Positions 7,463 to 48,997 of a stretch of DNA of 62,384 nucleotides are shown here, one piece after another; the stretch's first letter is position 1, and every line of letters starts with the position of its first letter. Source of the stretch: Chloroflexota bacterium (lineage in GTDB: Bacteria; Chloroflexota; Dehalococcoidia; UBA2979); NCBI GenBank assembly GCA_027592645.1, contig JAQCKI010000002.1, positions 1 through 62,384 on the forward strand, given 5' to 3'. The position numbers were made by a program, and so were the translations under genes. The notes below the pieces were generated by a model. It saw only the letters and a program-made list of their open reading frames with translations, was not told the DNA's origin and ran no database searches.

Positions 7463-7978
7463 TCATGCCGGGCGCGCGAAACCTGCGGTGTACTGCCAGA
7501 CGGGGTGCTCGGCGGGTTCGTCGGAGAGACGGAAGCGCGGAAGCCCGAGCCCGTCGCCGAGGTCTGCGAAGTCGACCTGCACGCGCAAGCCGATGCCGGT
7601 GCGCTCTTCGTGTTCGGGCTGCCCGAGGGTGTCCACGAGCAGTCCGAGGATGCGCAGCCCGTCGTACTCGGTCGGGACACCGCGCTGCTCATCGAGTTCG
7701 ACGAGGACCACCGGGTACGGCGTCACGCCTCGGAACGCCGGGTGAATGCCGTGCGTGACGATCTGGTACGAGTAGATCGTGCCGCGCCCCGACACGGCCT
7801 CCCACGACCAGCCAAGCGCCTGGCAGAACGGGCAGGCGTTGCCGATGGGGTAGCGCAGGCGGGCACAGTCCTCGCACTTCTGGAGGACAAAGCGGCCCTG
7901 GCCGGCGTGCTCCAGGAACTCGCGGTGCTCGGGGTCGTTGGAGAGGATCTCCACCTTGACGCCCAGGTACTCGGCCAT
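7463..7978 (-). CDS. Zn-ribbon + OB-fold protein (DUF35 family, BbsA / thiolase-associated type)
   Basis: Has a CEDC...CPFC rubredoxin-like zinc ribbon followed by an OB-fold region. Lies immediately downstream of the thiolase-like gene, the canonical DUF35-thiolase pairing. Confidence 0.85.
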   Translation of the reverse strand: MAEYLGVKVEILSNDPEHREFLEHAGQGRFVLQKCEDCARLRYPIGNACPFCQALGWSWEAVSGRGTIYSYQIVTHGIHPAFRGVTPYPVVLVELDEQRGVPTEYDGLRILGLLVDTLGQPEHEERTGIGLRVQVDFADLGDGLGLPRFRLSDEPAEHPVWQYTAGFARPA

Positions 7979-7990
7979 GGTGTCGCCTCC

Positions 7991-9205
7991 CTACCGGCGC
8001 ATGATGAGCGCGGAGCCGGTCGCGGGACTGGCCCAGCCGAGGTTCATGGCGATCTCCACGTCCTTCACCTGGCGACAACCACCTTCCGAGTAATCGTAGG
8101 TGTGTTTGCCCTCCGCCCAGCCGGTGCAGAAGTCGTCCGCCTGGTGGCGAAGTTGGCGCACGTTCTCCACGACGTGGCCGATGCCGTGCGTGTAGCCCTC
8201 ACACAGGTGCCCGCCGGCGGTGTTGTTGGGTCGTGCGCCGCCGAGTTCGATGATGCCGCTGGAGACGTAGCCCCCACCTTCACCCTCCGCGCAGAAGCCG
8301 TACGCCTCCAGTTGCAGCATCGTGGTGAAGGTGAACGCGTCGTACGAGCCGGTCACATCCACGTCCTCCGGGCCGACACCGGCCTGCCCGAAGACGATCG
8401 GCGCGCCGTAGTAGCCCGCGACACGCGAGATCGGGCCGCGCGACCAGTGGGAGCCGCCCGGCTGCTCCTTATTCACGCGCCCCGCCACGCCCATGATGTA
8501 GGCCGGTGCCTGGCGGAGGTCACGAGCGTGCTCGGCGCTGGTCACGATGATCGCGACGCCGTTGTCGGTCTCCACGCAGCAGTCCAGCAGGTGCAGCGGC
8601 TTGGTGATCCACCGCGAGTTGACGACGTCCTCGACGGTCATCCGCTGCGGGTAGAGGGCGCGCGGGTTGTTGGAGGCGTGCTTACTGTGCGCCACCTTCA
8701 CGTGCGCCACCTGCTCGCTGGTGGTGCCGTACTCGTACATGTGGCGCATGAAGGAGGGCGCAAACGACTGCGCCGCCGAGTGCATCCCGTGCATCGCCAC
8801 ATCTACCGAGGCGCCCCGGAACACCGGCGCCTGCCGCCCCGTCCCGCCGATGCGTGCCTCCGTGTAGCCGTTCATCGCACGGAAGATGACGACGGTGCGG
8901 CACATGCCCACCTCGATGGCGCCCATCGCGAGGCCGATCAGCGCCTCCGTGCTGGAGCCACCACCGGAGCAGTCCATGTAGAAGTTCAGGCGGATGCCCA
9001 GGTCCCCGGCGATCACGGGCGAGGTGGTCGAGTCGTTCCCGTGGTACGAGAGCATCCCATCGATGTCCCCGGCACCGAGGCCGGCATCGATCATCGCGGC
9101 GCGCACCGCCTCCACGCCCAGCGCACGCGTGGTGCGACCGGAGTTGCGGGAGAACTCGGTCATCCCGATCCCGACGACGGCGTACTGATCCCTCAATCCG
9201 GGCAT
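7991..9205 (-). CDS. Thiolase-like protein (SCP-x / BbsB-type non-acetoacetyl thiolase)
   Basis: ORF 7991..9787 trimmed to the ATG at 9205 (MPGLRDQYAVVGIGMTEFSR). Thiolase-fold motifs present (CSGGGSS, GGHLCEGYTHG). Confidence 0.85.
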   Translation of the reverse strand: MPGLRDQYAVVGIGMTEFSRNSGRTTRALGVEAVRAAMIDAGLGAGDIDGMLSYHGNDSTTSPVIAGDLGIRLNFYMDCSGGGSSTEALIGLAMGAIEVGMCRTVVIFRAMNGYTEARIGGTGRQAPVFRGASVDVAMHGMHSAAQSFAPSFMRHMYEYGTTSEQVAHVKVAHSKHASNNPRALYPQRMTVEDVVNSRWITKPLHLLDCCVETDNGVAIIVTSAEHARDLRQAPAYIMGVAGRVNKEQPGGSHWSRGPISRVAGYYGAPIVFGQAGVGPEDVDVTGSYDAFTFTTMLQLEAYGFCAEGEGGGYVSSGIIELGGARPNNTAGGHLCEGYTHGIGHVVENVRQLRHQADDFCTGWAEGKHTYDYSEGGCRQVKDVEIAMNLGWASPATGSALIMRR

Positions 9206-9338
9206 GGGGCCCTCCTTGCTGAGCGCAGCGCGACGGCAATGTAGCACCGGTGATTGCGCCCGTGATTGACGGCCTTCTCCGGCGCGTGTTAGCAACGTCG
9301 GGCCGGAACACCTCCCGGGATCACCAGGCGAGGGACAC

Positions 9339-10529
9339 GTGGAACAACCGCTGGCCGGAACCCGAATCGTGGAGGTCGGTGGCGCGCTCGCCGCTGCGGC
9401 GGCGACGAAGGCGTTCTCTGACTTCGGTGCGGACGTGATCGCCGTGGAACCGCTCGCGGGCGGCCAGGTGCGGCGGTTGCCGCCCTTCCCGGGCGACCGA
9501 CCGGACATCAACGCTGGCGCGTTCCACCTCTCGACCAACACCGGCAAGCAGTCGATTCCGCTCGACCTCGAATCGCCCTCGGGGCGCGAGGTACTCGGAC
9601 GGCTGCTGCAGGGCGCGGACCTGGCGGTCACGGAACTCTCGCCGGACGCGACGCGGCGCATCCTGCTACTGGCCGAGGCCGCCGGGGTGAGCATCATCAC
9701 GATCACACCGCACGGCCTGACCGGCCCGTACGCCGACCGGAGGGAGACTGACACCTCGATCTTCGCGTGGAGCACGCGGATGCACACGCACTCGCAGCCG
9801 GGGCGCGCGCCGCTGCGTTACGCGCCGCACCTGGCGACGATGCAGGTGGGCAGCACCGCCGCCGCGGCCGGCTTCGCTTCGATCTGGGCGACGCAGCACG
9901 GACAACCGCGCCGCGAGATCGAGATCGCGGGCATCGAGGCGATCTCCGGCAACGTCGATTCGTTCTTCCTCCAGTGGTCGTTCATGGGCGCGGAGGCGCC
10001 TCGCACCGCCGGCCGCTCGAAGGCCGCCTACCCGGCGGGCAACTACCGCTGTAAGGACGGCTGGGTGATGTTCGCCGCGGCCGGGGATCGCTTCTTCGGC
10101 CGGCTGTGCGAAGCGCTCGGCCAGCCCGATCTCCCGAAGGATCCCCGCTTCGCGACGCCACTCGCAAAGGCGGAGCACTTCGATGATTTCATGGCACACC
10201 TCGGGCCGTGGCTGGAGACGCGCACTCGCCACGAGGTGGTCACCGAACTTCAGGCGTTCGGCGTGATGGTCTCCCCCACCCTCACCGCGGCCGAGGTACT
10301 CACGGACGTGCAGGCAACGGCGCGCGGCACCTTCGTCACGTTTGACCAGCCGGGCGTTGGGGCGATCACCATCCCCGGCCCGCCGTTCCGTCTCCGCGGT
10401 GGCGATGACGATGCGTGGCAGGCGCGCCCGGCACCGCGCCTCGGCGAGCACACGGTCGCGCTGCTGGATGGCGCCGGGTACAGCCGCGACGAACAGATCG
10501 CGCTCTTCCGCGCGGGGGTGACGGGATGA
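9339..10529 (+). CDS. Family III CoA-transferase (CaiB/BaiF), A-type member of pair 1
   Basis: GTG start. GTRIVEVGGALAAAAATKAFSDFGADVIAVEP is the N-terminal Rossmann-like signature. C-terminal LGEHT motif. It is followed after 4 nt by a second family III gene. Confidence 0.9.
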   Translation: MEQPLAGTRIVEVGGALAAAAATKAFSDFGADVIAVEPLAGGQVRRLPPFPGDRPDINAGAFHLSTNTGKQSIPLDLESPSGREVLGRLLQGADLAVTELSPDATRRILLLAEAAGVSIITITPHGLTGPYADRRETDTSIFAWSTRMHTHSQPGRAPLRYAPHLATMQVGSTAAAAGFASIWATQHGQPRREIEIAGIEAISGNVDSFFLQWSFMGAEAPRTAGRSKAAYPAGNYRCKDGWVMFAAAGDRFFGRLCEALGQPDLPKDPRFATPLAKAEHFDDFMAHLGPWLETRTRHEVVTELQAFGVMVSPTLTAAEVLTDVQATARGTFVTFDQPGVGAITIPGPPFRLRGGDDDAWQARPAPRLGEHTVALLDGAGYSRDEQIALFRAGVTG

Positions 10530-39381: not shown

Positions 39382-42300
39382 CTACTGCGGGATCGTCAGC
39401 ACGAGCCCGTCGCGGATCGCGTAGCTCGGGCCGGCGATGCCGTTCGCCTCCGCGATGCTCATCCATGGGATGCCGTACCGCACGCCGATGGCGGAGAGCG
39501 TCTCCCCCGGGGCGACGGTGTGCGTCGTGCCGGACGAGGCCGCCGCCGGCGGCGGCGTCCCGGTCGAGACCGTCGCCGGGCGCGCCTGTGCCAGCGTCAC
39601 CGGCGTGTTCGCGGCGAGCTCAAGGCCGAAGTCGCCGAGGAACTGGTCGAGCAGGAACGCGGGGCCGTTGACCCGCAGGACGCGGAACAGCCCGTCGAAG
39701 CGCTGCAGCCACACGCCGGTTGCCCCCCGCAGCTCGGCGGCGCGGGCCAGCAGGTTGGCTGGGCCGCCGCCGAAGACCGCCAGGGCGTGGCCGGCGCTGC
39801 TGTAGCCGTTGAACCCGGTGATGGCCCCCAGGCCCGGCGCGAACATCAGCGCGATGACGTCGAAACTGGTGGTGCTGGCCGAGACGTCGTACGAGCCGTC
39901 CTCGTTCGCCGTCACCTGTGTCGGGACGAGCACCCACTCGGTGCCGGTCCAGCGCACGAACTGCAGGTCGCCCGAAGGCGTCCCCGCCAGCACGCGGCCG
40001 GCCGGCAGCGTGAAGTCGAACGCCATCGACCCGGGCGCCGTGGCAAGATCCAGCCCCGCGCTATCACGCCCGATGAAGGCGAACCCGAACAGCAGGGACG
40101 TGCCGGCCGGCGCCGGGTTCGCCTCCGCGAATGCATCGATGTCCACCGCGCCGAAGGAAATCACCGGCTCACCGGCCTCGTTCACCTGCGCGGCCTGGCC
40201 GGTGGCCACGCCGGAGGCGATCTCCTGGGTGATGCCGGCCGTGATGCTGGCTACGGTGATACGCGTACTCGAAACGCGCAGCGACATGGAAATTTCGTTC
40301 TTCAGGGTCGTCTGTAGATCGCGCCTCAGACTCTCGGATGAGAGGACAGAGAGGTCGCGGTTCAGCCGCAAGGTCGTCGCCGCCGCCTCCGTCGCGTGGA
40401 CGGTGAACGGCCCCGACGTGGCGGTCAACTGGACGCCGCCGACCGCGGCCGTGGCGTTCAGCACGAGGTTCGCGTCCGCACCGGTCACATTCACACCTGC
40501 GAACGTGGCAACGCCAGCTGCGGTCGTCGAGGTTGCCGTCGTGATCAACGAGGTGGTGGTGTCACCCGACTTGCTCAGCGACAGCGTGACCGGGCTCGTG
40601 ACCGATGTCACGACCTGATTCGCAGCGTTCCGGAACTCCAGCCGCGGCTGCGTGGTGAAGGCGACGCCGGACGCCTCGTGCGCCGGCTGCTGCGTGAACA
40701 CGAGTTGCGTCGCCACGTTGTCGGCGGTCACGGGGATCGAAGGGGACCTGGCGGACGTCAGGGCCCCGTGGCCTGCCGTGATCTCGTATCCAGCCGCCGA
40801 AGCCGTGCTGAACGACAGGCCGCTGAACGTCGCCACGCCGCTCACAAACGGTGCTTCGAGCAGACCCTTGAACGCACTCGGAGTGCTTGAGGCCAGCGTC
40901 ACCGATCCCATCTGGTTCGGGTTCGTCGCGCCCGTTGCATCCTGCGCCGCCACCGTCAGGGTGAACTTCTCGCCCACCCTCAGCGTGGTCGGCACGACCG
41001 AGGTGATGGTCAACTTCGTTGCCGTGACCGCCCGCTGCACCGTGATCGTGTGACTCGCGCTCGTGATGCCCGTAGCGCTAGCGGTAAGCGTATACGTGTC
41101 AGCGGCGCTGATGCGGCAGCCAGCGAACGTTGCCGCGCCGGCGACTGCGGCGACGGACGTCGAAGTGCAGGTCAGGCTGCCGCTACCAGACACCTTGGTG
41201 AGCGTGACTGTGTCCGTCGCCGCCCCCACGGTTGCGCCGGACGCGTTCACCACGCGGACGGTCGGCTGCTGCGCGAACGCGACGCCTACGGACGCGAAGG
41301 AGGGAGCGTCGATCACGAGGCGGTTGACCGCCGTCGCGATCGCCGGCATCGTGCCGGTCGAGGTCTGCGCGACCACCACGTCCGCGCTCGTGGTCGTACG
41401 CATGACCACGTTCGTGCGTGCAGGCTGAGCCGCCGGGTTGGTGGCGCCGGTCACCGTGAACGTGACGGCCGAGTCGGCGGGAACACCCGCGTTGAGTGTC
41501 ACCGTGAGCGTCCCCGCGGTGAAGGCCGCGCTGTTCGCCAGGGCACTGGATGAGGTGAACGTCGCAGTAGGCGCCGCCGGCCACGTGAAGCCCGGCATCT
41601 CCACCACGATCTTGCCACCTGAGGGGATCGCCACCGGCGTGACGAACGCCACCGTCGCGGTGACGGCGGTGGCACTCGGCACAGTGCTGCTCAGCGTCAC
41701 GGCCGCGTTGAGGAGCGCGCCCGTGTAGGTGTAGGTCACGTCCGAGTTGCTCGCCACGCCGCCCACGGTCACCACCACGGGCAACGCGCCGGTCACGATG
41801 CGAGCCGGCACGATCGCCTGAATGATCGTCGAACTGAGCCAGGTCACGCTGGGCGCGGCGAATCCGCCAACGGTCACGGAGGTGATGCTGGCTGTCGACG
41901 TGCCGAATCCGGACCCGGTGATACTCACGACCGTGCCAGTACCCGATGGCCCGAACGCCGGCGTGACCGCGGTCACTCGCGGCCCAGCCGCGGTGAGCGT
42001 GAAGCCCGCGCTGGAGTCGACCGGCGTGGTGTCCTTCGACGTGTGCACGGTGAGGGCACTCGTCGCGATTGTCCCGGCACCCGGGTTGGTGGCCAGGAAG
42101 GTGAGCCTCGCACTCGTCCCTGCCACCACCGCTCCCCCGCGGATTACGACGGTGTCACGGGCGTCTGCCGTGACCGTGCCGGTCAGGGTCCCCGTGATGC
42201 CGGTGCCGGCGGCGACTGCCACCGATCCCTCGGGGAACGTGTACCCGGTCATCTTGACGGTGATGGTGTCAGCGGCAACGAGCGCCGTGGTGGCGCGGAA

Positions 42301-45300
42301 CGTCGTCGTGATCGTCGTCGCTGCGCTCGCCACCAGCGGGCTGGCCGAGATGGTCAAGGCGGTGACGGAAGTGCCGGGGATCGCCACCAGCGTCCCGGTC
42401 GAGGTCTGCGCGCGCACCTGGTCCGCGCTCGTGGTCGTACGCATGACCACATTGGTGCGTGCAGGCTGAGCCGCCGGGTTGGTGGCGCCCGTCACCGTGA
42501 AGGTGACGACCGATTGGGGGGAAACCGAAACACCCGCGTTCAGTGTCACCGTGAGCGTCCCCGCGGTGAAGGCCGCGCTGTTCGCCAGGGCACTGGGTGA
42601 GGTGAACGTCGCGGTGGGCGTACCCGGCCACGTGAAGCCCGGCATCTCCACCACGATCCTGCCACCCGCAGGGATCGCGACCGGCGTACTGAACGACACC
42701 GTCGCCGTGACGGCGGTTGCACTCGCCGTGGTGTTGCTCAGCGTGATGATTGGATTGAGGAGCGCGCCCGTGTAGGTGTAGGTCACGTCCGAGTTGCTCG
42801 CCACGCCGCCCACGGTCACCACCACGGGGAACGCACCGGTCACGCTGCGAGGCGGCACGGTCGCCTGAATGATCGTTGAACTGACCCAGGTCACGCTGGG
42901 CGCGGCGAATCCGCCAACGGTCACGGAGGTGATGCCGGCCGTCGACGTGCCGAATCCGGTCCCGGCAATCGTCACGACCGTGCTGGTACCGAAGACGCCC
43001 CCTGGCCCGGACGCCGGCGTGACGGCGGTCACTGTGACCGCCGACCCGAACGTGATTCCCGCCGAGGAGGCTACGGGGATCGTGTCCCTCGACGTGGCGA
43101 CCGTGAGGCCGTCCGCCGGGATGGTCCGGGCGGACGGGTTCGTCGCGGGGAAGGTGAAGGAGGCTTCTGTACCCCCATTCACCGACTGGTCAGGACTCAG
43201 GCTGATGACCACCGTGTCGGTGGCATCCGCGGCGACGGAACCCGCCATCCCGCTGGTCAGGCGAGTGATACCCCTACCGGCGGTGGCCACGAACGCCCCC
43301 GTGAACGTGTAGCCCGCCAATTTGACCCGGATCGTCTCATTCCCTAACAGCTCCGTCGTCGGCGTGAACCTCACCGTCATCGTCGTCGCGGCGCCCGGGG
43401 TCAGCGAGCTCGAGGTGATGCTGACGTGCCTGACCGCGGTGCCGCTGATCACGATGTCGGCGCTGGACGCCACCGGGAGGCTCGTGCCGAGATCGGCGTG
43501 ACTGATGTGGACCGTCATGCCGGCCTTGAGGATCGTCTTTGCGGCCGGATTGGTCACCGGGAAGCGCAGGGTGATGGGTGTGCCCGCCGGCAGCGCTGCC
43601 GTCCCCGTCGTCACGATCACGACGTTGGAGGTCAGCCCGGTCTGGGCGACCGTGGTGGTGCCAGAGCCAGCGACAAACGAGGCCAGTGGCACCGTCGAGA
43701 GTGCGAAGTCGGCGGGGAGTCGAACCATGATTCGCCCACCCGCGGGCAGCGGCTGGTCCAGCGTGAACCGCACGTTCAGGTTCGTGTTGGCCGTGGGGGC
43801 GGGGGACGTGACGGTGTAGAACACGTCGCGCACCGTCGGCAGGACGCCCCGCAGCGTGACCGTGTAGTCCGTCGAGCCGTTCGCGTCAGCGGCACGGACG
43901 GTGACGACCGTACCGGTAGCCAGCGGCGTGACGTTCGGCTCGTACGGGGTGGTACCGCGAAGGTAGGTGAGGTCGCCGCGCTCCGCCTCCGCGGCGACGA
44001 AGTAGCGCTTGCCGGCCGGCACATCCACGGTGTAAGCCGTCTGGCCGTCCACGAGCGGTACGTTGATCAACTGGGCGAGACTCGTGAAGTCCTCGGGGCC
44101 CACGAGCAGTGACGTGAGTTTCGGCCCGGGCGGCGGCGTGATCACCACGTCCGCCAGGGCAGCGCCCGGCGTCGTATCACGCGTCGTCCTGACTGTGATG
44201 GCCGCGCTTGCGATCGTGCGTGCGGTCGGGTTGGGGATGACGAGCGTGAGGCGCCCCGTCTGCGAGGCGTCCAGCGACGCGTCCCGCAGGACGAATTCAA
44301 TCGTGTCCGGGGCGATCCGGTGGATCTCCTGGTATGAGCGAAGCGCCGAACCCCCAACGACGAAGTCCCCACCGAGGGCCGGAGCGCCTGTCTGGCTACC
44401 GAACGCGAAGAAGTTGTAGCCGGTCACCGTCAAGTAGATCCGATTGCCGCTGGTGAGCGCGCCGGTGGCAGATGTCGTGAACTCCAGCGTCCAGATCGCC
44501 AGGGCGCCCGCCCGGTAGTTGTTGGCCGTGAACGAAACGCTGCTCACCTGGTTCGGGCGGACGCACTGGCTCTCGCTCGTCGCGCCGGGCGCGTTGGTCG
44601 TTGTGCCCGTGGGGCAGGCCGTCGCGGTCGTCGCACCCGCAACGGCAACGAAGAAGTTCACCGGCGCGTCTACGCAGGAGGCCGAGCCGGACGTGTTGTT
44701 GTACGTCCCAGGGGCGCACGGCGTCGCACTGGTGCCGCCGATGACGTTGACGTACGAACCTGGCGGTGCCGGCTGGCAGGGCGTGAAGCCCGTGGCGCTG
44801 AACGTGCCGACCGGGCACAGGGTCGGCGCAGGCGCGAAGATCGGGGGCGCCGGTGGCGCGGTGAAGGTGATCGTGAACGTGGGCGCGGCGACGATGAGCG
44901 CAGCGCCAGTCACGGCCGTCGCCGGGACGGTCACGGTGATCGTCTCGTTCGCGGTGATGTTGTAGCCGGCGAAGGCCGGCAGCGTGACCGTGACCACGGT
45001 GCCGCTGGTGCGCACCACCGTGCCGACGGCGAGGCCGGCCTGCACCACGGCGTTCCAGCCGGCGCCCTCCGCACCGGCCGAGGTGATGCCGTTGATGATG
45101 TTCTGGCGCTGCCCGTCAAAGACGCCGCCAGCGGCGACCCAGGTGTCGTTGGTCAACGTGATGATGATCGTCCCGCCGTCCGCCACGATGGCGGCCTCGG
45201 TGTTCGCGCCGGCCTGAATCGTGCCGGTGATCGCCGCGGAAACCGGAAGTGCCGCCACGATCGTGAGCGTCGGCGCCGCCGTCAGCGCGCCCGCGCTGGC

Positions 45301-46296
45301 GATCGCCGTCGCGGGGACGGTCACGGTGATCGTCTCGTCCGCGGTGATGTCGTAGCCCGCGATCGCCGGCAGAGTGACGGTGACCACGGTGGCGCTGGTG
45401 CGGACCACGGTGCCCACGGCCAGCGTGTCGCGCACGGTGGTGTTCCAGCCGGTGCCTTCGGCCTGCGCCGAGGTGATGCCGTTGATGATGTTCTGTCGCT
45501 GCGCCGCGAACGTGCCGTCGTCCGGCACCCAGGTGTCGTTCGTCAGCGTGATGATGATCGTCCCGCCGCCCGCGACGATCGCGGCCTCGGTGTTCGCGCC
45601 GGCCTGAATCGTGCCGGTGATCGCCGCGGAAGCGGCCAGGATGTTGAACGTGGGCGCGGCAACGATGGGGTTGCCGCCGGTCACCGCCGTGCCGGGCACG
45701 GTCACCGTGACCGTCTCGTTCGCGGTGATGTTGTACGTCGCGAACGCCGGGAGCGTGACCGTGACGACCGTCGCACTGGTGCGAACCACGTTGCCGACGA
45801 CCAGCCCGGCCCGTACCACGGCGTTCCAGCCCGTGCCCTCGGCCTGCGCGGAGGAGATGCCGTTGATGATGTTCTGCCGCTGCGCCGCGAAAGTGCCGTC
45901 GTCCGCCACCCAGGTGTCGTTCGTCAGCGTGATGATGATCGTCCCGCCGCCCGCGACGATGTGGCCCTCGGTGTTATTGCCGGCCTGGATCGTGCCGGTG
46001 ATCGCCGCCGTCGCGGCGGCGGCGACGATGTCGAAGGCCGCGCTGGTGCCCTGCGCCTGGCCTGTGGCGTCCACGGTTACGGTGAGGCCAGCGGCGGGCG
46101 CGCCGGGGTTCACCAGCTCAGCGGTGGCGTTGATCGGAATGTTGAGTATGGCGAGCGATGTCTGAATCCCGTCGATCGTGAACGTCACCGTGCGCGCAGC
46201 GGCGTTCCCCGTAACGGTCGGCGGGAGTGCGAAGACCGTCGTGTCAAACCCGGTCAGGGCGCCGGCCTGGACCGTCCAGCCGGCGGGGAACGTCAC
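39382..46296 (-). CDS. Giant (2,304-codon) repeat-rich cell-surface protein body: tandem beta-sandwich repeats, Cys-rich module, IPT/TIG and bacterial Ig-like domains, C-terminal LysM
   Basis: Longest ORF in the window, with a Thr/Ala/Val/Gly-rich beta-strand composition. Two IPT/TIG-like segments (ITSVTVGGFAAPSVTW.SSTIIQA.VP...VVVTVGG). Ig-like repeats (QQPTVRVVNASGATV...ATFAGCRISAADTYTLTA). The last 46 aa, HTVAPGETLSAIGVRYGIPWMSIAEANGI...LVLTIPQ, form a LysM motif. The annotated first codon is an internal GTG and no signal peptide occurs in this ORF. Confidence 0.85.
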   Translation of the reverse strand: MTFPAGWTVQAGALTGFDTTVFALPPTVTGNAAARTVTFTIDGIQTSLAILNIPINATAELVNPGAPAAGLTVTVDATGQAQGTSAAFDIVAAAATAAITGTIQAGNNTEGHIVAGGGTIIITLTNDTWVADDGTFAAQRQNIINGISSAQAEGTGWNAVVRAGLVVGNVVRTSATVVTVTLPAFATYNITANETVTVTVPGTAVTGGNPIVAAPTFNILAASAAITGTIQAGANTEAAIVAGGGTIIITLTNDTWVPDDGTFAAQRQNIINGITSAQAEGTGWNTTVRDTLAVGTVVRTSATVVTVTLPAIAGYDITADETITVTVPATAIASAGALTAAPTLTIVAALPVSAAITGTIQAGANTEAAIVADGGTIIITLTNDTWVAAGGVFDGQRQNIINGITSAGAEGAGWNAVVQAGLAVGTVVRTSGTVVTVTLPAFAGYNITANETITVTVPATAVTGAALIVAAPTFTITFTAPPAPPIFAPAPTLCPVGTFSATGFTPCQPAPPGSYVNVIGGTSATPCAPGTYNNTSGSASCVDAPVNFFVAVAGATTATACPTGTTTNAPGATSESQCVRPNQVSSVSFTANNYRAGALAIWTLEFTTSATGALTSGNRIYLTVTGYNFFAFGSQTGAPALGGDFVVGGSALRSYQEIHRIAPDTIEFVLRDASLDASQTGRLTLVIPNPTARTIASAAITVRTTRDTTPGAALADVVITPPPGPKLTSLLVGPEDFTSLAQLINVPLVDGQTAYTVDVPAGKRYFVAAEAERGDLTYLRGTTPYEPNVTPLATGTVVTVRAADANGSTDYTVTLRGVLPTVRDVFYTVTSPAPTANTNLNVRFTLDQPLPAGGRIMVRLPADFALSTVPLASFVAGSGTTTVAQTGLTSNVVIVTTGTAALPAGTPITLRFPVTNPAAKTILKAGMTVHISHADLGTSLPVASSADIVISGTAVRHVSITSSSLTPGAATTMTVRFTPTTELLGNETIRVKLAGYTFTGAFVATAGRGITRLTSGMAGSVAADATDTVVISLSPDQSVNGGTEASFTFPATNPSARTIPADGLTVATSRDTIPVASSAGITFGSAVTVTAVTPASGPGGVFGTSTVVTIAGTGFGTSTAGITSVTVGGFAAPSVTWVSSTIIQATVPPRSVTGAFPVVVTVGGVASNSDVTYTYTGALLNPIITLSNTTASATAVTATVSFSTPVAIPAGGRIVVEMPGFTWPGTPTATFTSPSALANSAAFTAGTLTVTLNAGVSVSPQSVVTFTVTGATNPAAQPARTNVVMRTTTSADQVRAQTSTGTLVAIPGTSVTALTISASPLVASAATTITTTFRATTALVAADTITVKMTGYTFPEGSVAVAAGTGITGTLTGTVTADARDTVVIRGGAVVAGTSARLTFLATNPGAGTIATSALTVHTSKDTTPVDSSAGFTLTAAGPRVTAVTPAFGPSGTGTVVSITGSGFGTSTASITSVTVGGFAAPSVTWLSSTIIQAIVPARIVTGALPVVVTVGGVASNSDVTYTYTGALLNAAVTLSSTVPSATAVTATVAFVTPVAIPSGGKIVVEMPGFTWPAAPTATFTSSSALANSAAFTAGTLTVTLNAGVPADSAVTFTVTGATNPAAQPARTNVVMRTTTSADVVVAQTSTGTMPAIATAVNRLVIDAPSFASVGVAFAQQPTVRVVNASGATVGAATDTVTLTKVSGSGSLTCTSTSVAAVAGAATFAGCRISAADTYTLTASATGITSASHTITVQRAVTATKLTITSVVPTTLRVGEKFTLTVAAQDATGATNPNQMGSVTLASSTPSAFKGLLEAPFVSGVATFSGLSFSTASAAGYEITAGHGALTSARSPSIPVTADNVATQLVFTQQPAHEASGVAFTTQPRLEFRNAANQVVTSVTSPVTLSLSKSGDTTTSLITTATSTTAAGVATFAGVNVTGADANLVLNATAAVGGVQLTATSGPFTVHATEAAATTLRLNRDLSVLSSESLRRDLQTTLKNEISMSLRVSSTRITVASITAGITQEIASGVATGQAAQVNEAGEPVISFGAVDIDAFAEANPAPAGTSLLFGFAFIGRDSAGLDLATAPGSMAFDFTLPAGRVLAGTPSGDLQFVRWTGTEWVLVPTQVTANEDGSYDVSASTTSFDVIALMFAPGLGAITGFNGYSSAGHALAVFGGGPANLLARAAELRGATGVWLQRFDGLFRVLRVNGPAFLLDQFLGDFGLELAANTPVTLAQARPATVSTGTPPPAAASSGTTHTVAPGETLSAIGVRYGIPWMSIAEANGIAGPSYAIRDGLVLTIPQ
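41330..43400 (-). repeat. About 1.05-kb tandem duplication inside the giant gene (unit = IPT/TIG domain + two beta-sandwich modules)
   Basis: The stretch around 41330-41970 recurs around 42380-43020 at an offset of 1041-1047 nt. For example, 41710-41781 (72 nt) is identical to 42757-42828. Confidence 0.85.
44860..46002 (-). repeat. Three tandem coding repeats of 381/390/~372 nt (127-130 aa units starting ITGTIQAG)
   Basis: Units start at 46002, 45621 and 45231 on the minus strand. The 18-mer GCCGTTGATGATGTTCTG recurs at 45088, 45478 and 45859. Confidence 0.9.
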
Positions 46297-46344
46297 GACA
46301 ATGGTCTCCCCGTTGTTGAGGTCAGCATCGAGGGTGATGTCCAG

Positions 46345-46512
46345 TTAACCGGCGGTCTGGACGCTCACGGTGTTGTCAGTCAGGGTGAAGACGACCCCGA
46401 CCGCGGCCTCCGCCCGCCCGAGCGGACTCAGCGCCAGCAGGGTGAACATGAGGAGCGCCGCGGCCACGCGCCACGGGCGCAGCCAGCCAGAGATGGCCTG
46501 GTGAGAGATCAT
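46345..46512 (-). CDS. Signal-peptide-encoding 5' fragment, in frame with the giant ORF but closed by TAA at 46345-46347
   Basis: ATG at 46512. The sequence MISHQAISGWLRPWRVAAALLMFTLLALSPLGRAEA/AVGVVFTLTDNTVSVQTAG has n-, h- and AxA regions. It is in the same reading frame as 39382..46296 (46539-46296 = 243 nt). Confidence 0.6.
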   Translation of the reverse strand: MISHQAISGWLRPWRVAAALLMFTLLALSPLGRAEAAVGVVFTLTDNTVSVQTAG

Positions 46513-46550
46513 GATTCGTACCTGCCGCACTTGCCGCACGAATAAGTGAA

Positions 46551-46577
46551 GCGCCCACTCGTGCTCCGAGTGGGCGC
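46551..46577 (-). terminator. Perfect 11-bp hairpin 38 nt upstream of the giant-gene ATG (terminator of the upstream gene or 5'-terminal mRNA stem-loop)
   Basis: The minus strand reads GCGCCCACTCG-GAGCA-CGAGTGGGCGC followed by TTCACTTATTCG. Confidence 0.45.
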
Positions 46578-46581
46578 AGGT

Positions 46582-46610
46582 ACAGTACGTTCCGGAACCT
46601 TCCCTCGCAA
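46582..46610 (-). promoter_or_regulatory. Candidate sigma-70-type promoter for the giant gene
   Basis: On the minus strand, TTGCGA (46610-46605), then a 17-nt spacer, then TACTGT (46587-46582). The predicted start falls at the first bases of the hairpin. Pattern match only. Confidence 0.3.
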
Positions 46611-46720
46611 ACGCGCGAATCTGACGGTTTGGCGCGGCCGCCGTCGGTCACCCGTCGCACACGCGACGCCCCTGGCCGATCACCCGGCGACTCGCAGATT
46701 CCACCACGAACGCAGGCCGA

Positions 46721-48997
46721 TCAGGCGGGCTTCAACTCCAGGCTGTGCTCCGCGGACGCCAGGATGTCCGCCCACCGCGTGTAGAGCGGGTGGTACTCCA
46801 CGTTGAGCCAGTGCTCGAGCTGATCGGCGTAGTGCGGCGAGCCCGGCTGCCCTGAGTTGCCCGGCGGGATGCAGATCTTCATGCCGTTGAGATCGGCCAG
46901 ATCGATGATCTGGCGGTACGTCACACCATGCGTGGATGCCGCTCCGCGCTCCGTCTGCGTTGCAAACGGCGTCATGCCGTCGCCCCCCGCCTCGTACAGC
47001 CCGAGGTTGACCGTGGCGGCGAGCGCCTCGTCGCGGCCGAGGTTGTGCGCCCACAGCACCTGGTGCTCCGCGCCCCATCGCCACACGGCGGGGTCGCCGC
47101 CGTGCCGCTCCACGATCACCCTCGATGCCTCCGCCATCGCCTCGGCGATCGCGACGTTCCAACTCGCTGCGCCCATCAGCATCAGCGGACGGCCCGCCGT
47201 CAGTTGTTCGTAGAGGATGCGGTACTCCTCGGCGGAGGTGGAGGCGGCCACGTTCGGAACCTGCGCGTAGTAGGCCCGCACGGTACGGGCGATCAGCGCA
47301 TCGCAGATGTTGGCGTAGGCGACGGGAATCGCGCTGTCGACATCGAGCCTGCCATCCCACCCCTCGAGGAGCCCGCGGAGGCGCTTCGCGCCAGCATCGG
47401 CGACCTCGACGCCGGCAAAGCGCCGGCCGAGGTCGCGCGCGTGGATGCTGGTCTGGTCGCCCTGCAGCAGCCGCATCGTGTCCGCATCGAACGTTTCGAC
47501 CTCATCGAGCAGTTCGCGCAGGCGGTCGGCGCGCCATCGCGACGAGGTGAACGACAGGTAGTGCGGGTAGTCGGGCCCGATCGTGCGGTTGTTCGCCGTG
47601 AGGATCACACCGCCGGGCGGGTTCTCATCGAACGGCAGTTCATCCTTCGGGATGTCGCCGTCCCACTCGTGCTTCCCGTCCCAGCCCGGCACCGGCAGCA
47701 CCCACCCGGGCCGCTTCGGCAACCGTCCCGAGTACTGGTAGCCGATGTCTCCGGAGGGCCCGGCGAAGCAGAAATTGCCGGAGACGGAGTCGTACTTGCG
47801 GAAGCCCTCGCGCGCGTCCTCGAACGTGCGGGCGCGGAGAACGGCGAGCAGCGCATCGGTGTCGTGCGCAGGCGCCTCCAACCCCCAGTGTGCCGCGATC
47901 ACCTCGTCGTCGCGCGTGGGGTCGCCAGAGATCACCGGGCCGTGGCGCGTCAGCCACACCGTGCGCGTGACCGGCTCTCTGCCGCGCACCTCGAACATCT
48001 CGTCGAGCCGTGTGAGCGGCGCCCACGCATCCTCGAAGAGCGCCTCCGGGCCGGCCGCGCCCTGACGGATGCGCTCGCGGTACAGATCCCACCGGTCGCC
48101 CTGCGCGTGGGTCATCGTCCACGCGACGTGGCCGTTGTGGCCGTAGAACACCGGGCCCGGGTAACACGGGTTGCACGGCCCCGCAGCAACGAACTCCGGG
48201 CACTCCATGTGCACCACGTACCACTGCGCGGGCACGGAGATCGCCAGGTGCGGGTCGCCGATCACCATCGGGTGTCCGCTCGCCGTCCGCGAGCCGTGCA
48301 CCACCCAGCAGTTCGACCCGCCGCCCGAGGGGATCGGCCCGTCCGGCTCGCCCATCGCCGACTCCGGGTCGGCCAGGAAGGGGTGTGTCTCCTCGGTCCA
48401 CCGCGCCCCCGCGGGGACGATGAGCGCGGCATCCCGCGGTACGTCCGGGATGAGCGCACGCACCGCCTCGATGCCGAGGCGTGCCGCCACCTGTCCGAAC
48501 TTCAGTTTGCTGGCCCACTGCGCGTTGACGTTGATCATCTTCACGACCGCCAGCGAGTCGACCGGCGACCACGGCGCCATCTCCAGACCCAGGACGCGGT
48601 GTTCCCACGAACGCGGCTGCGTCGCGATTGCGGCGTTGATGCCGTCGGCATACGCCTGCAAGACCGTGCGCGACTCGTCCGTCTGCTGCTCCCACTCCAC
48701 CTCGGCCAGCCGCCCGAAGCCCAGCCGCCGGTTCTGGATGTCACGGCTCAGCAGCCCGGCGTTCAACATCGCCGCGGAGGTGCCCCGCGCCATGCGGCGG
48801 TAGAGGTCGATCTGGAACGCGCGGTCCTGCGCGATACAGAACCCCTGCGCGAAGAACGCGTCGCGCATGCTCTCCGCCTTGATGTGCGGGATGCCCCAAC
48901 GGTCGCGGACGATGCGCACCGGCGCATCGAGTCCCGCGACGGTCGTTTCGCCCTCGGTGATCGCGAGGCAGTCCGCAGGGCTGATGGTGGTCGTCAT
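46721..48997 (-). CDS. Penicillin acylase (penicillin amidase / AHL-acylase) family Ntn-hydrolase, no signal peptide
   Basis: ORF 46721..49150 trimmed to the ATG at 48997 (MTTTISPADCLAITEG). DRWGIPHI is the alpha-subunit motif. GGGSNCWVV corresponds to the SN.W nucleophile Ser at the beta-subunit N-terminus. 758 aa. Confidence 0.9.
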   Translation of the reverse strand: MTTTISPADCLAITEGETTVAGLDAPVRIVRDRWGIPHIKAESMRDAFFAQGFCIAQDRAFQIDLYRRMARGTSAAMLNAGLLSRDIQNRRLGFGRLAEVEWEQQTDESRTVLQAYADGINAAIATQPRSWEHRVLGLEMAPWSPVDSLAVVKMINVNAQWASKLKFGQVAARLGIEAVRALIPDVPRDAALIVPAGARWTEETHPFLADPESAMGEPDGPIPSGGGSNCWVVHGSRTASGHPMVIGDPHLAISVPAQWYVVHMECPEFVAAGPCNPCYPGPVFYGHNGHVAWTMTHAQGDRWDLYRERIRQGAAGPEALFEDAWAPLTRLDEMFEVRGREPVTRTVWLTRHGPVISGDPTRDDEVIAAHWGLEAPAHDTDALLAVLRARTFEDAREGFRKYDSVSGNFCFAGPSGDIGYQYSGRLPKRPGWVLPVPGWDGKHEWDGDIPKDELPFDENPPGGVILTANNRTIGPDYPHYLSFTSSRWRADRLRELLDEVETFDADTMRLLQGDQTSIHARDLGRRFAGVEVADAGAKRLRGLLEGWDGRLDVDSAIPVAYANICDALIARTVRAYYAQVPNVAASTSAEEYRILYEQLTAGRPLMLMGAASWNVAIAEAMAEASRVIVERHGGDPAVWRWGAEHQVLWAHNLGRDEALAATVNLGLYEAGGDGMTPFATQTERGAASTHGVTYRQIIDLADLNGMKICIPPGNSGQPGSPHYADQLEHWLNVEYHPLYTRWADILASAEHSLELKPA

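What the first reader, a model, noticed from the sequence alone, without database searches (positions are those of the whole stretch)
46297..46539. A single in-frame TAA separates a good signal peptide from a 2,304-codon surface-protein body
The 64-codon ORF 46345..46539 encodes a textbook Sec signal peptide (from the ATG at 46512: MISHQAISGWLRPWRVAAALLMFTLLALSPLGRAEA/AV) followed by beta-strand-like sequence. It is in exactly the same reading frame as the giant ORF 39382..46296 (243 nt apart).

Translating across the gap gives ...TLTDNTVSVQTAG-TAA-LDITLDADLNNGETIVVTFPAGWTVQAG.... This is continuous domain-like sequence with one stop codon (plus strand TTA at 46345-46347).
- The first codon of the giant ORF in the track is only an internal GTG.
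- Without the upstream piece the LysM/IPT/Ig-like protein has no export signal.
- TAA is a rare triplet in this GC-rich coding context and sits in a near-palindrome, CCGGTTAACTGG.

Options are (a) a very recent nonsense mutation inactivating a 7.1-kb adhesin-like gene, (b) an assembly or sequencing error, or (c) leaky or programmed read-through or an on/off polymorphism of a costly surface protein.
Basis: seen in the sequence. Interest (0 to 1): 0.7.

Follow-up and report, generated by a model that had tools for sequence, protein, structure and literature searches.

The report
Nonsense-interrupted giant surface-protein gene
A 7.1-kb gene for a giant exported cell-wall-anchored protein of an uncultured Chloroflexota bacterium carries one genuine premature TAA stop 55 codons in, which cuts off its export signal and most likely makes it a freshly dead gene, an ordinary but well-documented case.

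Summary
On the minus strand, ATG 46512 opens a signal peptide plus 19 mature residues. A TAA follows at 46345-46347, and the same frame then stays open for 2,320 codons to 39382.

- **Not an artefact.** The identical 55-codon ORF ending in this TAA occurs in seven assemblies labelled as different samples or runs, all at least 99.8% identical to the window.
- **Ancestrally one gene.** An exhaustive HMMER search found intact homologues of 2,099, 2,004 and 1,537 aa with the same signal peptide and first domain. Their alignments run without a gap through the stop position.
- **Sense codon in relatives.** All 12 aligned homologues have a sense residue there (7 Ser, 3 Thr, 1 Asn, 1 Asp).
- **Ordinary stop codon.** TAA ends about 4 of 44 coding-like ORFs in the window. 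I found no RNA structure, repeat tract or suppressor tRNA that would suggest read-through or switching.

Best reading: a recent loss-of-function nonsense allele, possibly TCA to TAA, fixed in a near-clonal population of a Chloroflexota bacterium, probably Dehalococcoidia. Other family members are also disrupted (a second in-frame TAA, a G-run frameshift, remnants), which suggests rapid turnover of this family. Interest is low to moderate.

The parts
46405..46512 (-). Start codon (ATG 46512-46510) and 36-codon Sec-type signal peptide. It has a long basic n-region with a conserved RPWRVAA motif, a hydrophobic core, and the cleavage motif AEA/A.
   Evidence: Sequence. M1, P13, W14, A18 and A36 are invariant or nearly so in 13 family N-termini. 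AlphaFold models residues 13-32 as a helix followed by a low-confidence linker at 32-36. No dedicated signal-peptide predictor was available.
46348..46404 (-). The 19 mature-protein codons before the stop (AVGVVFTLTDNTVSVQTAG). They form the first beta-strand and loop of the first Ig-like domain.
   Evidence: They align without gaps to homologues. DSSP assigns residues 39-41 as a strand in the model. GC3 is 0.86.
46345..46347 (-). The in-frame TAA (plus strand TTA), the premature stop at codon 56.
   Evidence: Seen. It is identical in L001/L004, L002 and L005-L009. Homologues have S, T, N or D at this column. The codon is TCG in L040 and ACG in L041.
46021..46404 (-). First Ig-like (adhesin-type beta-sandwich) domain, codons 37-164. 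The stop interrupts it.
   Evidence: AlphaFold2 on alignment A1 gives mean pLDDT 78.5 and pTM 0.69, with residues 51-60 at pLDDT 85. The best Foldseek PDB hits are the CLIPPER domain of a fibrillar adhesin, the SdrD/ClfB/SdrG MSCRAMM adhesins and BslA.
46294..46311 (-). GGGGAG (46311-46306), a 9-nt spacer, then GTG (46296-46294). Gene callers place the start of the 2,304-aa ORF here. It is a possible re-initiation site that would give a product without a signal peptide.
   Evidence: Sequence. ORF list. Genes called in L001/L004.
39382..46344 (-). The 2,320-codon open frame after the stop, the body of the giant protein, ending in TAG at 39382-39384.
   Evidence: Translation. GC3 is 0.89. N-terminal residues 11-295 are 65% identical to P0121, and C-terminal residues 1746-2376 are 45% identical to it through the last residue.
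44833..46005 (-). Three tandem repeats of about 127 aa (AAITGTIQAG...TVTVP), weakly similar to Pfam DGF-1_5.
   Evidence: Translation. Pfam. DNA self-matches of 83%. The same module occurs in many short metagenomic proteins.
44563..44709 (-). Cys-rich Ephrin_rec_like module.
   Evidence: Pfam PF07699, E = 1.9e-10, residues 546-594 of the post-stop protein.
41725..41982 (-). IPT/TIG domain, the better-scoring of two.
   Evidence: Pfam PF01833, E = 5.8e-17, residues 1455-1540.
39388..39522 (-). C-terminal LysM peptidoglycan-binding domain.
   Evidence: Pfam PF01476, E = 4e-9 and 36.7 bits against a cutoff of 20.9, residues 2275-2319. The same C-terminus (...VLTIPQ) is found in P0121.

Best explanation
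This is a genuine nonsense allele of a gene for a giant secreted, LysM-anchored protein built of Ig-like repeats, in an uncultured high-GC Chloroflexota bacterium (probably Dehalococcoidia).

A sense codon, most likely Ser TCA given that Ser or Thr sits there in all close homologues, became TAA at codon 56. This happened inside the first Ig-like domain, 19 residues after the signal-peptide cleavage site. Translation from ATG 46512 therefore ends after a 55-residue peptide.

Any translation that restarts at the internal GTG 46296 would lack both the signal peptide and the first two strands of domain 1. Such a product could not reach the cell wall, where its LysM domain acts. The gene is thus functionally inactivated.

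The event is recent. The remaining 6.96 kb is still an intact frame with normal codon bias. The allele is fixed, at consensus level, in a near-clonal environmental population.

**Shown:** the stop is real, it interrupts a domain, and homologues are continuous with a sense codon.

**Inferred:** loss of function, the ancestral codon, recency, and any selective cause such as cost saving or escape from phage that use the protein as a receptor.
For: 1. **The stop is real.** The identical 55-aa ORF ending in TAA is found in 7 contigs from 7 assemblies: ERZ23495042, ERZ23495043, SRR19040531, SRR2027816 and ERZ24794637/39/40. The sequence was read directly in L001 and L002. All loci are 99.8-100% identical to the window.
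2. **The gene was once continuous.** An exhaustive HMMER search gave 23 hits. P0121 (2,099 aa), P0123 (2,004 aa) and P0122 (1,537 aa) align from about residue 7-11 to residue 163-164, across position 56. P0121 and P0123 are each encoded by a single intact gene on their contigs.
3. **Relatives have a sense codon.** The alignment column holds 7 S, 3 T, 1 N and 1 D with no gaps nearby. The codons are TCG in L040 and ACG in L041.
4. **The stop lies inside a folded domain.** Model strands sit at 39-41 and 58-60, with pLDDT 85 for residues 51-60.
5. **TAA is a normal terminator here.** It ends 4 of 44 coding-like ORFs. No other in-frame stop splits a coding frame in the window.
6. **No second lesion.** About 1.44% of all single-base changes in this gene would create a stop (308 of 21,393). 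By my calculation, an intact 6.96 kb therefore implies less than about 3% neutral divergence since the event.
7. **No polar constraint.** The next gene downstream is on the opposite strand.
8. **The family decays elsewhere too**.
Against: - No expression, protein or read-level data are available, so loss of function is inferred rather than shown.
- No close relative (above about 65% identity) was found. The ancestral codon and the age of the mutation are therefore not pinned down.
- The few within-population SNPs (4 nonsynonymous to 1 synonymous in the gene, against about 5 to 2 in the flanking genes) give no power to detect relaxed selection.
- TAA is the least likely outcome of a random one-step nonsense mutation in this gene (9-15%). 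A second family member also carries an in-frame TAA. This is mildly odd for pure chance.
- It is not known how independent the seven samples are. No sample metadata were available.
Confidence: 0.8

Rival explanations
1. ON/OFF polymorphism. The TAA allele is a loss-of-function variant that coexists in the population with intact alleles. The balance would be maintained by phage predation or by the cost of the protein. The consensus assemblies simply report the majority OFF state.
For: The family shows several independent disruptions in other lineages. These include a frameshift in a G5/G7/G4 run that three assemblies reproduce and another in-frame TAA. From general knowledge, giant surface proteins of planktonic microbes are typical hypervariable loci.
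Against: All 7 assemblies show only the TAA allele. There is no repeat tract or invertible element at the site. Reversion would need one specific point mutation, so this cannot be a high-frequency switch.
Confidence: 0.1
2. Leaky or programmed read-through of the TAA keeps a low level of full-length exported protein.
For: The downstream 2,320 codons are fully intact with normal codon bias. Two family members carry an in-frame TAA rather than the expected TAG.
Against: None of the 12 homologues has a stop at this column. Both release factors recognise TAA, which makes it the tightest stop (established knowledge). The local RNA fold is not unusual (z = -1.04). TAA terminates ordinary genes in the window. 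The window's only tRNA is an ordinary tRNA-Ser(GCT), with no suppressor tRNA.
Confidence: 0.05
3. The split is functional. Translation re-initiates at GTG 46296 (with GGGGAG 9 nt upstream) and yields a 2,304-aa protein that acts without a Sec signal, either in the cytoplasm or exported by another route.
For: A plausible ribosome-binding site and start lie 48 nt after the stop. Gene callers annotate this ORF.
Against: The start lies in the middle of an Ig-like domain and removes two strands. The C-terminal LysM domain and the adhesin-type folds imply an extracellular location. No homologue starts there. All full-length homologues carry the signal peptide.
Confidence: 0.03
4. Sequencing or assembly error. 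The real genome has a sense codon.
For: None was found. Some of the supporting contigs have only about 2x coverage.
Against: The TAA is identical in seven assemblies made by at least three pipelines, labelled as several different samples. These include 58-kb and 19.8-kb scaffolds.
Confidence: 0.02

Closest known systems
Nonsense- or frameshift-inactivated large adhesin genes, for example the pseudogenised giant non-fimbrial adhesins shdA, ratB and sivH of host-restricted Salmonella serovars (recalled from general knowledge, not tested here)
   Same: A very large surface-protein gene built of Ig-like repeats is knocked out by a single early lesion, and the rest of the ORF is still intact. The allele is fixed in a clonal lineage.
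   Different: This is a free-living, uncultured aquatic Chloroflexota bacterium, not a pathogen. The protein has a different architecture: a LysM anchor, TIG and Ephrin_rec_like modules, and a family-specific N-terminal domain and signal peptide.
Phase-variable surface proteins switched by slipped-strand mispairing at homopolymer or short-repeat tracts (for example Neisseria Opa/PilC or Haemophilus adhesins; general knowledge)
   Same: A costly or immunogenic surface protein is turned off near the 5' end of its gene. One sister gene (L049-L051) is indeed broken within a run of G tracts.
   Different: The window's lesion is a point nonsense codon with no repeat tract, so it cannot switch reversibly at high frequency. 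Only the OFF state was observed.
Giant cell-surface proteins in hypervariable 'metagenomic islands' of planktonic prokaryotes (Rodriguez-Valera and colleagues; for example the Haloquadratum cell-wall island in PMC4535781 and Alteromonas in PMC3458243, both seen but not read)
   Same: It is a very large secreted repeat protein of an abundant aquatic microbe. It is not syntenic among relatives, and disrupted copies are frequent.
   Different: I did not show that the locus is a recruitment gap or island. The population sampled here is nearly clonal across the whole 22 kb compared.
MSCRAMM and fibrillar-adhesin Ig-like domains (SdrD, ClfB and SdrG; the CLIPPER domain, PDB 9ifr)
   Same: The predicted first domain has an adhesin-type beta-sandwich fold (Foldseek E = 2.9e-4 to 1e-2).
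   Different: TM-scores are only 0.4-0.5 and sequence identity is below 20%. There is no LPXTG sortase anchor, and anchoring appears to be by LysM. This is a fold resemblance only, not family membership.

Membership tests
Nonsense-mutation pseudogene (disrupted gene) | The in-frame stop lies inside sequence that is homologous to uninterrupted genes in relatives. | tested here: met
   Single HMMER alignments span the stop. The alignment has no gap there, and 12 of 12 homologues have a sense residue. Intact single genes are seen in L040 and L041.
Nonsense-mutation pseudogene (disrupted gene) | The stop is real in the organism and not an artefact. | tested here: met
   It is identical in 7 assemblies. 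Read-level data were not available.
Nonsense-mutation pseudogene (disrupted gene) | The codon acts as a standard terminator in this genome, with no code reassignment. | tested here: met
   TAA ends 4 of 44 coding-like ORFs. No other coding frame in the window is interrupted.
Nonsense-mutation pseudogene (disrupted gene) | Functional product is lost, or selection on the downstream part is relaxed. | tested here: inconclusive
   Only 5 reliable SNPs fall in the gene (4 nonsynonymous, 1 synonymous), against about 5 to 2 in the flanks. No expression data exist, and no relative is close enough for dN/dS.
Programmed stop-codon read-through or recoding | The stop is conserved at the same site in homologues. 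| tested here: not met
   None of the 12 homologues has a stop in this column.
Programmed stop-codon read-through or recoding | A leaky stop, a stimulatory context or RNA structure, or a cognate suppressor tRNA is present. | tested here: not met
   The codon is TAA. The 101-nt fold has z = -1.04. The only tRNA in the window is tRNA-Ser(GCT). The rest of the genome was not available.
Phase-variable surface protein (slipped-strand or inversion switch) | A simple-sequence repeat, homopolymer or invertible element lies at the switch point. | tested here: not met
   The sequence GCCGGTTAACTGGAC has no tract. Only short inverted repeats at chance level are present.
Phase-variable surface protein (slipped-strand or inversion switch) | Both ON and OFF alleles occur in the population. 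| tested here: inconclusive
   Only OFF was seen in 7 consensus assemblies. A pattern scan with NNN at the codon found nothing in JGI metagenome contigs. Minor alleles would need reads.
LysM-anchored secreted Ig-like repeat surface protein | An N-terminal Sec signal peptide is present. | tested here: met
   The sequence has an n-h-c layout with AEA/A. This is conserved across the family, and the model shows a helix at 13-32. No SignalP-type predictor was run.
LysM-anchored secreted Ig-like repeat surface protein | LysM and Ig-like or TIG domains score above the curated thresholds. | tested here: met
   LysM scores 36.7 bits against a cutoff of 20.9, and TIG scores 61.9 against 20.9.
LysM-anchored secreted Ig-like repeat surface protein | The protein is located on the cell wall and has adhesive or structural function. 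| not testable with these tools
   This would need experiments on an uncultured organism.

The most novel reading that the evidence does not exclude
Loss of this giant LysM-anchored protein is recurrently selected in planktonic Chloroflexota, for example as escape from phage that use it as a receptor or as cost saving. Selection would favour a tight shut-off.

Two independent family members carry an in-frame TAA near the 5' end, although TAA is expected for only about 9-15% of one-step nonsense mutations. One of them replaces a TGG codon and so needs two base changes. Another member is broken in a G-tract. Several lineages retain only short remnants that consist of a signal peptide and a stub.

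If this is right, the family would be a natural system for studying adaptive gene loss, or ON/OFF variation, in uncultured aquatic bacteria.
Probability: 0.12. Interest if true: 0.55.

Novelty: new member of a known kind. Interest (0 to 1): 0.25.

Why it matters
**For annotation.** The 55-aa 'hypothetical protein' and the 2,304-aa ORF that starts at GTG are two pieces of one disrupted gene. They should be annotated as a single pseudogene, not as two genes. The same applies to the copies of this locus in public metagenome assemblies.

**For biology.** The locus documents a previously undescribed family of giant surface proteins in uncultured Chloroflexota. Members share a signal peptide with a conserved RPWRVAA motif, an N-terminal adhesin-like Ig domain, variable repeats and, in some members including this one, a C-terminal LysM anchor. 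The family appears to be gained, lost and broken often. This is the pattern expected for cell-envelope proteins exposed to phage and grazers.

The single event in the window is ordinary.

Tried and rejected
- **N-terminal 293 aa against the word-indexed protein database.** The result was swamped by the roughly 125-aa repeat module, and nothing matched the signal peptide or first domain.
- **The same database with the 164-aa N-terminus.** Only one fragment came back (P0030).
- **The same database with the unique C-terminal 286 aa.** It found nothing, not even the window's own protein. No relative closer than about 65% identity could be found.
- **GTDB representative genomes with the N-terminus.** No relative was found.
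- **Synteny.** The neighbouring penicillin amidase has 56-72% identical orthologues in Dehalococcoidia and other Chloroflexota MAGs. None of them has the giant gene next to it.
- **DNA pattern with NNN at the stop codon against JGI metagenome contigs.** There were 0 matches, so no alternative allele was recovered.
- **Exact look-up of the 2,304-aa ORF.** Nothing was found, probably because the query's first residue was translated as V rather than M.
- **Code reassignment of TAA.** Rejected.
- **Stimulatory RNA structure or a meaningful palindrome.** Rejected.
- **Promoter and terminator consensus scan of 46200-46800.** It found nothing.
- **SNP-based test for relaxed selection.** There were too few SNPs.
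- **Literature search for giant Chloroflexi surface proteins.** It returned nothing specific.

Full report
**1. The observation**

Reading the minus strand confirms the description. ATG at 46512 opens MISHQAISGWLRPWRVAAALLMFTLLALSPLGRAEA/AVGVVFTLTDNTVSVQTAG. A TAA follows at 46345-46347. The same frame then continues LDITLDADLNNGETIVVTFPAGWTVQAG... for 2,320 codons to TAG at 39382-39384.

The mechanically listed 2,304-aa ORF starts at an internal GTG (46296-46294), which lies 9 nt after GGGGAG. Codon bias is the same on both sides of the stop, with GC3 of 0.86 and 0.89. Pfam finds two TIG domains, an Ephrin_rec_like module, weak DGF-1_5-like repeats and a C-terminal LysM domain.

**2. Is the stop real?**

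Exact-product look-ups found the same locus in other public assemblies. The 55-aa ORF that ends in this TAA is present on seven contigs from seven assemblies:
- ENA ERZ23495042, on a 58-kb scaffold
- ENA ERZ23495043, on a 19.8-kb scaffold
- Logan SRR19040531
- Logan SRR2027816
- ENA ERZ24794637, ERZ24794639 and ERZ24794640

I read the TAA directly in L001 and L002. All these loci are 99.8-100% identical to the window. They differ by 0-10 SNPs, and L005 also has one 6-bp indel. The window itself differs from L001 by 3 SNPs in 22 kb.

The stop is therefore not an error of one assembly. It is the consensus state of one near-clonal environmental population. How independent the samples are could not be checked, because no metadata were available. 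The label 'MEHR18-1' and a close relative named casp150 suggest Caspian Sea water-column metagenomes (PMC5864207). This is inference only.

**3. Was it once one gene?**

An exhaustive HMMER scan used the conceptual N-terminus (164 aa, with X at the stop) against 1.84 billion cluster representatives. It returned 23 hits. The best were:
- P0121: 2,099 aa, 61% identity, aligned 10-164 as one stretch, E = 4.6e-42
- P0123: 2,004 aa
- P0122: 1,537 aa

P0121 has the same signal peptide ending (GRAEAA) and the same LysM C-terminus (...VLTIPQ). It matches the window protein at 65% over residues 11-295 and at 45% over residues 1746-2376. P0121 and P0123 are each a single intact gene on their contigs, in unrelated genomic contexts.

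In a 13-sequence alignment there is no gap near the stop column. The 12 homologues there have Ser (7), Thr (3), Asn (1) or Asp (1). The codon is TCG in L040 and ACG in L041.

AlphaFold2 on this alignment (mean pLDDT 78.5, pTM 0.69) gives three features:
- a signal-peptide helix at 13-32
- a low-confidence linker at the cleavage site
- one beta-sandwich, with strands at 39-41 before the stop and 58-60 just after it

Residues 51-60 have pLDDT 85. The fold resembles adhesin-type Ig domains such as CLIPPER, SdrD/ClfB/SdrG and BslA.

Weak internal paralogue matches also run straight through the stop. For example, TAGxLDITLDA aligns with TAGTLTVTLNA. The stop therefore sits inside a domain of a once-continuous precursor.

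**4. Is TAA special here?**

- TAA ends 4 of 44 coding-like ORFs in the window.
- A scan for stops flanked on both sides by coding-like frames found only two cases outside the antisense shadow of the giant gene. One is this site. The other is a normal adjacent gene pair, a thiolase-like protein followed by a ChsH2-type OB-fold protein.
- The window's only tRNA is tRNA-Ser(GCT).
- The 101-nt RNA around the stop folds no better than shuffles (z = -1.04).
- The GTTAAC palindrome occurs once against 1.63 expected. The neighbourhood is full of similar short inverted repeats.

Nothing points to reassignment, programmed read-through or a switch element. From established knowledge, both release factors recognise UAA, which makes it the least leaky stop.

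**5. Mechanism**

The most economical account is a point nonsense mutation. TCA (Ser) to TAA is a single C-to-A change. It fits the residue seen in most homologues, and TCA is used 8 times in this gene. TAC to TAA is the commonest one-step route by codon count but does not fit the homologues.

The mutation ends translation after 55 residues. A restart at GTG 46296 would give a protein with no export signal and a decapitated first domain. That is incompatible with a LysM-anchored extracellular role.

The next gene downstream is on the other strand, so no operon constraint would preserve expression.

About 1.44% of all single-base changes in the gene would create a stop (308 of 21,393). By my calculation, the absence of a second stop in 6.96 kb means less than about 3% neutral divergence since the event at the 95% bound, ignoring indels. 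The event is therefore recent, though not necessarily very recent.

Within-population SNPs are too few to test for relaxed selection.

**6. Organism and context**

The upstream penicillin amidase has its best matches (56-72% aa identity) in MAGs labelled Dehalococcoidia or Chloroflexota. An NHL-repeat neighbour is 79% identical to one of them. None of those relatives has the giant gene beside the amidase. The homologues sit in other contexts. The gene is therefore not part of a conserved neighbourhood.

**7. The family is often broken**

- *Second in-frame TAA.* L044 (the same as L053; also L052 and L054) has an in-frame TAA that replaces the conserved Trp of the TFPAGW motif in its second domain. 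The frame stays open afterwards. These three assemblies may derive from one sample.
- *Frameshift.* L049-L051 carry a member split into 561-aa and 1,503-aa ORFs by a frameshift within GAGGGGGACGGGGGGGCGGGG, where a homologue has a poly-Gly linker. The three assemblies are identical across the junction.
- *Remnants.* L046 and L047 hold a 119-aa remnant next to a FUR gene. L045, from the same metagenome as the window, holds a 76-aa stub consisting of a signal peptide and one strand.
- *Weak evidence.* P0127 and P0135 look like deletion or frameshift products, but each rests on a single short contig.

Truncated proteins form their own clusters and so are over-represented among cluster representatives. 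These counts are not frequencies. Even so, the pattern fits rapid birth and death of this surface-protein family.

Two in-frame TAAs, where TAG is expected about 70% of the time, are a small oddity that I cannot evaluate with n = 2.

**8. Verdict**

Option (b) is excluded for practical purposes. Option (c) has no positive support, although a minority intact allele cannot be ruled out without reads.

This is a new example of a familiar phenomenon, a recently nonsense-inactivated giant surface-protein gene, in an undescribed family of uncultured Chloroflexota. Interest is low to moderate. The recurrent disruption across the family is the only part that might repay further work.

Noticed in passing
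L044 1070-1072 (same contig as L053; also L052 and L054): Another member of the same giant-protein family has an in-frame TAA. It replaces the conserved Trp of the TFPAGW motif in its second Ig-like domain (GCG GGG TAA ACC). The frame stays open for at least 223 more codons. TGG to TAA needs two base changes, equivalent to a CC-to-TT tandem change on the other strand.
   Followed up: partly
L049 about 9520-9560 (also L050 and L051): A third family member is split into 561-aa and 1,503-aa ORFs (the latter with Cadherin-like and LysM domains). The frameshift lies inside GAGGGGGACGGGGGGGCGGGG, which in a homologue encodes a poly-Gly linker. The three assemblies are identical. This could be a slipped-strand (phase-variation-like) site.
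   Followed up: partly
L045 388-618; L046 2990-3349; L047 795-1154: Short remnants of the family survive next to unrelated genes: a 76-aa piece with the signal peptide and first strand, and a 119-aa piece. L045 comes from the same metagenome as the window but from a different organism with 65% GC.
   Followed up: partly
window 46468-46488 (-), codons 9-15: The signal peptide has an unusually long n-region with a conserved RPWR[VIL]AA motif. P13 and W14 are invariant or nearly so in 13 family members. It may be a family-specific targeting motif, in the way YSIRK or extended signal peptide regions are for other giant surface proteins.
   Followed up: no
window 44833-46005 (-): The roughly 125-aa repeat (AAITGTIQAG...TWV...QRQNIINGI...VVTVTLPA...ITVTVP) is 60-73% identical to very many stand-alone proteins of about 164 aa in metagenomes. 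It also occurs as a module in unrelated proteins. This looks like a mobile or promiscuous domain with no Pfam family of its own beyond a faint DGF-1_5 match.
   Followed up: no
window 46551-46577 (-): A perfect 11-bp stem with a 5-nt loop (GCGCCCACTCG-GAGCA-CGAGTGGGCGC) is followed by TTCACTTATTCG. It lies 144 nt after the amidase stop and 39 nt before the giant gene's ATG. It could be a terminator of the amidase gene or a 5'-UTR structure. The consensus terminator scan did not call it.
   Followed up: no
window 46275-46278 compared with L007 1275-1278: One low-coverage contig (about 2x) carries three clustered changes that turn the conserved Trp79-Thr80 of TFPAGWT into Arg-Ala. This is either error or a non-conservative variant in an already dead gene.
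   Followed up: no
window 7463-9817 (-): A thiolase-like ORF (608 codons stop-to-stop) and a 175-aa ChsH2-type OB-fold/zinc-ribbon ORF lie in the same frame, separated only by a TAG. Pfam shows they are the usual two separate genes and not a second interrupted gene.
   Followed up: yes
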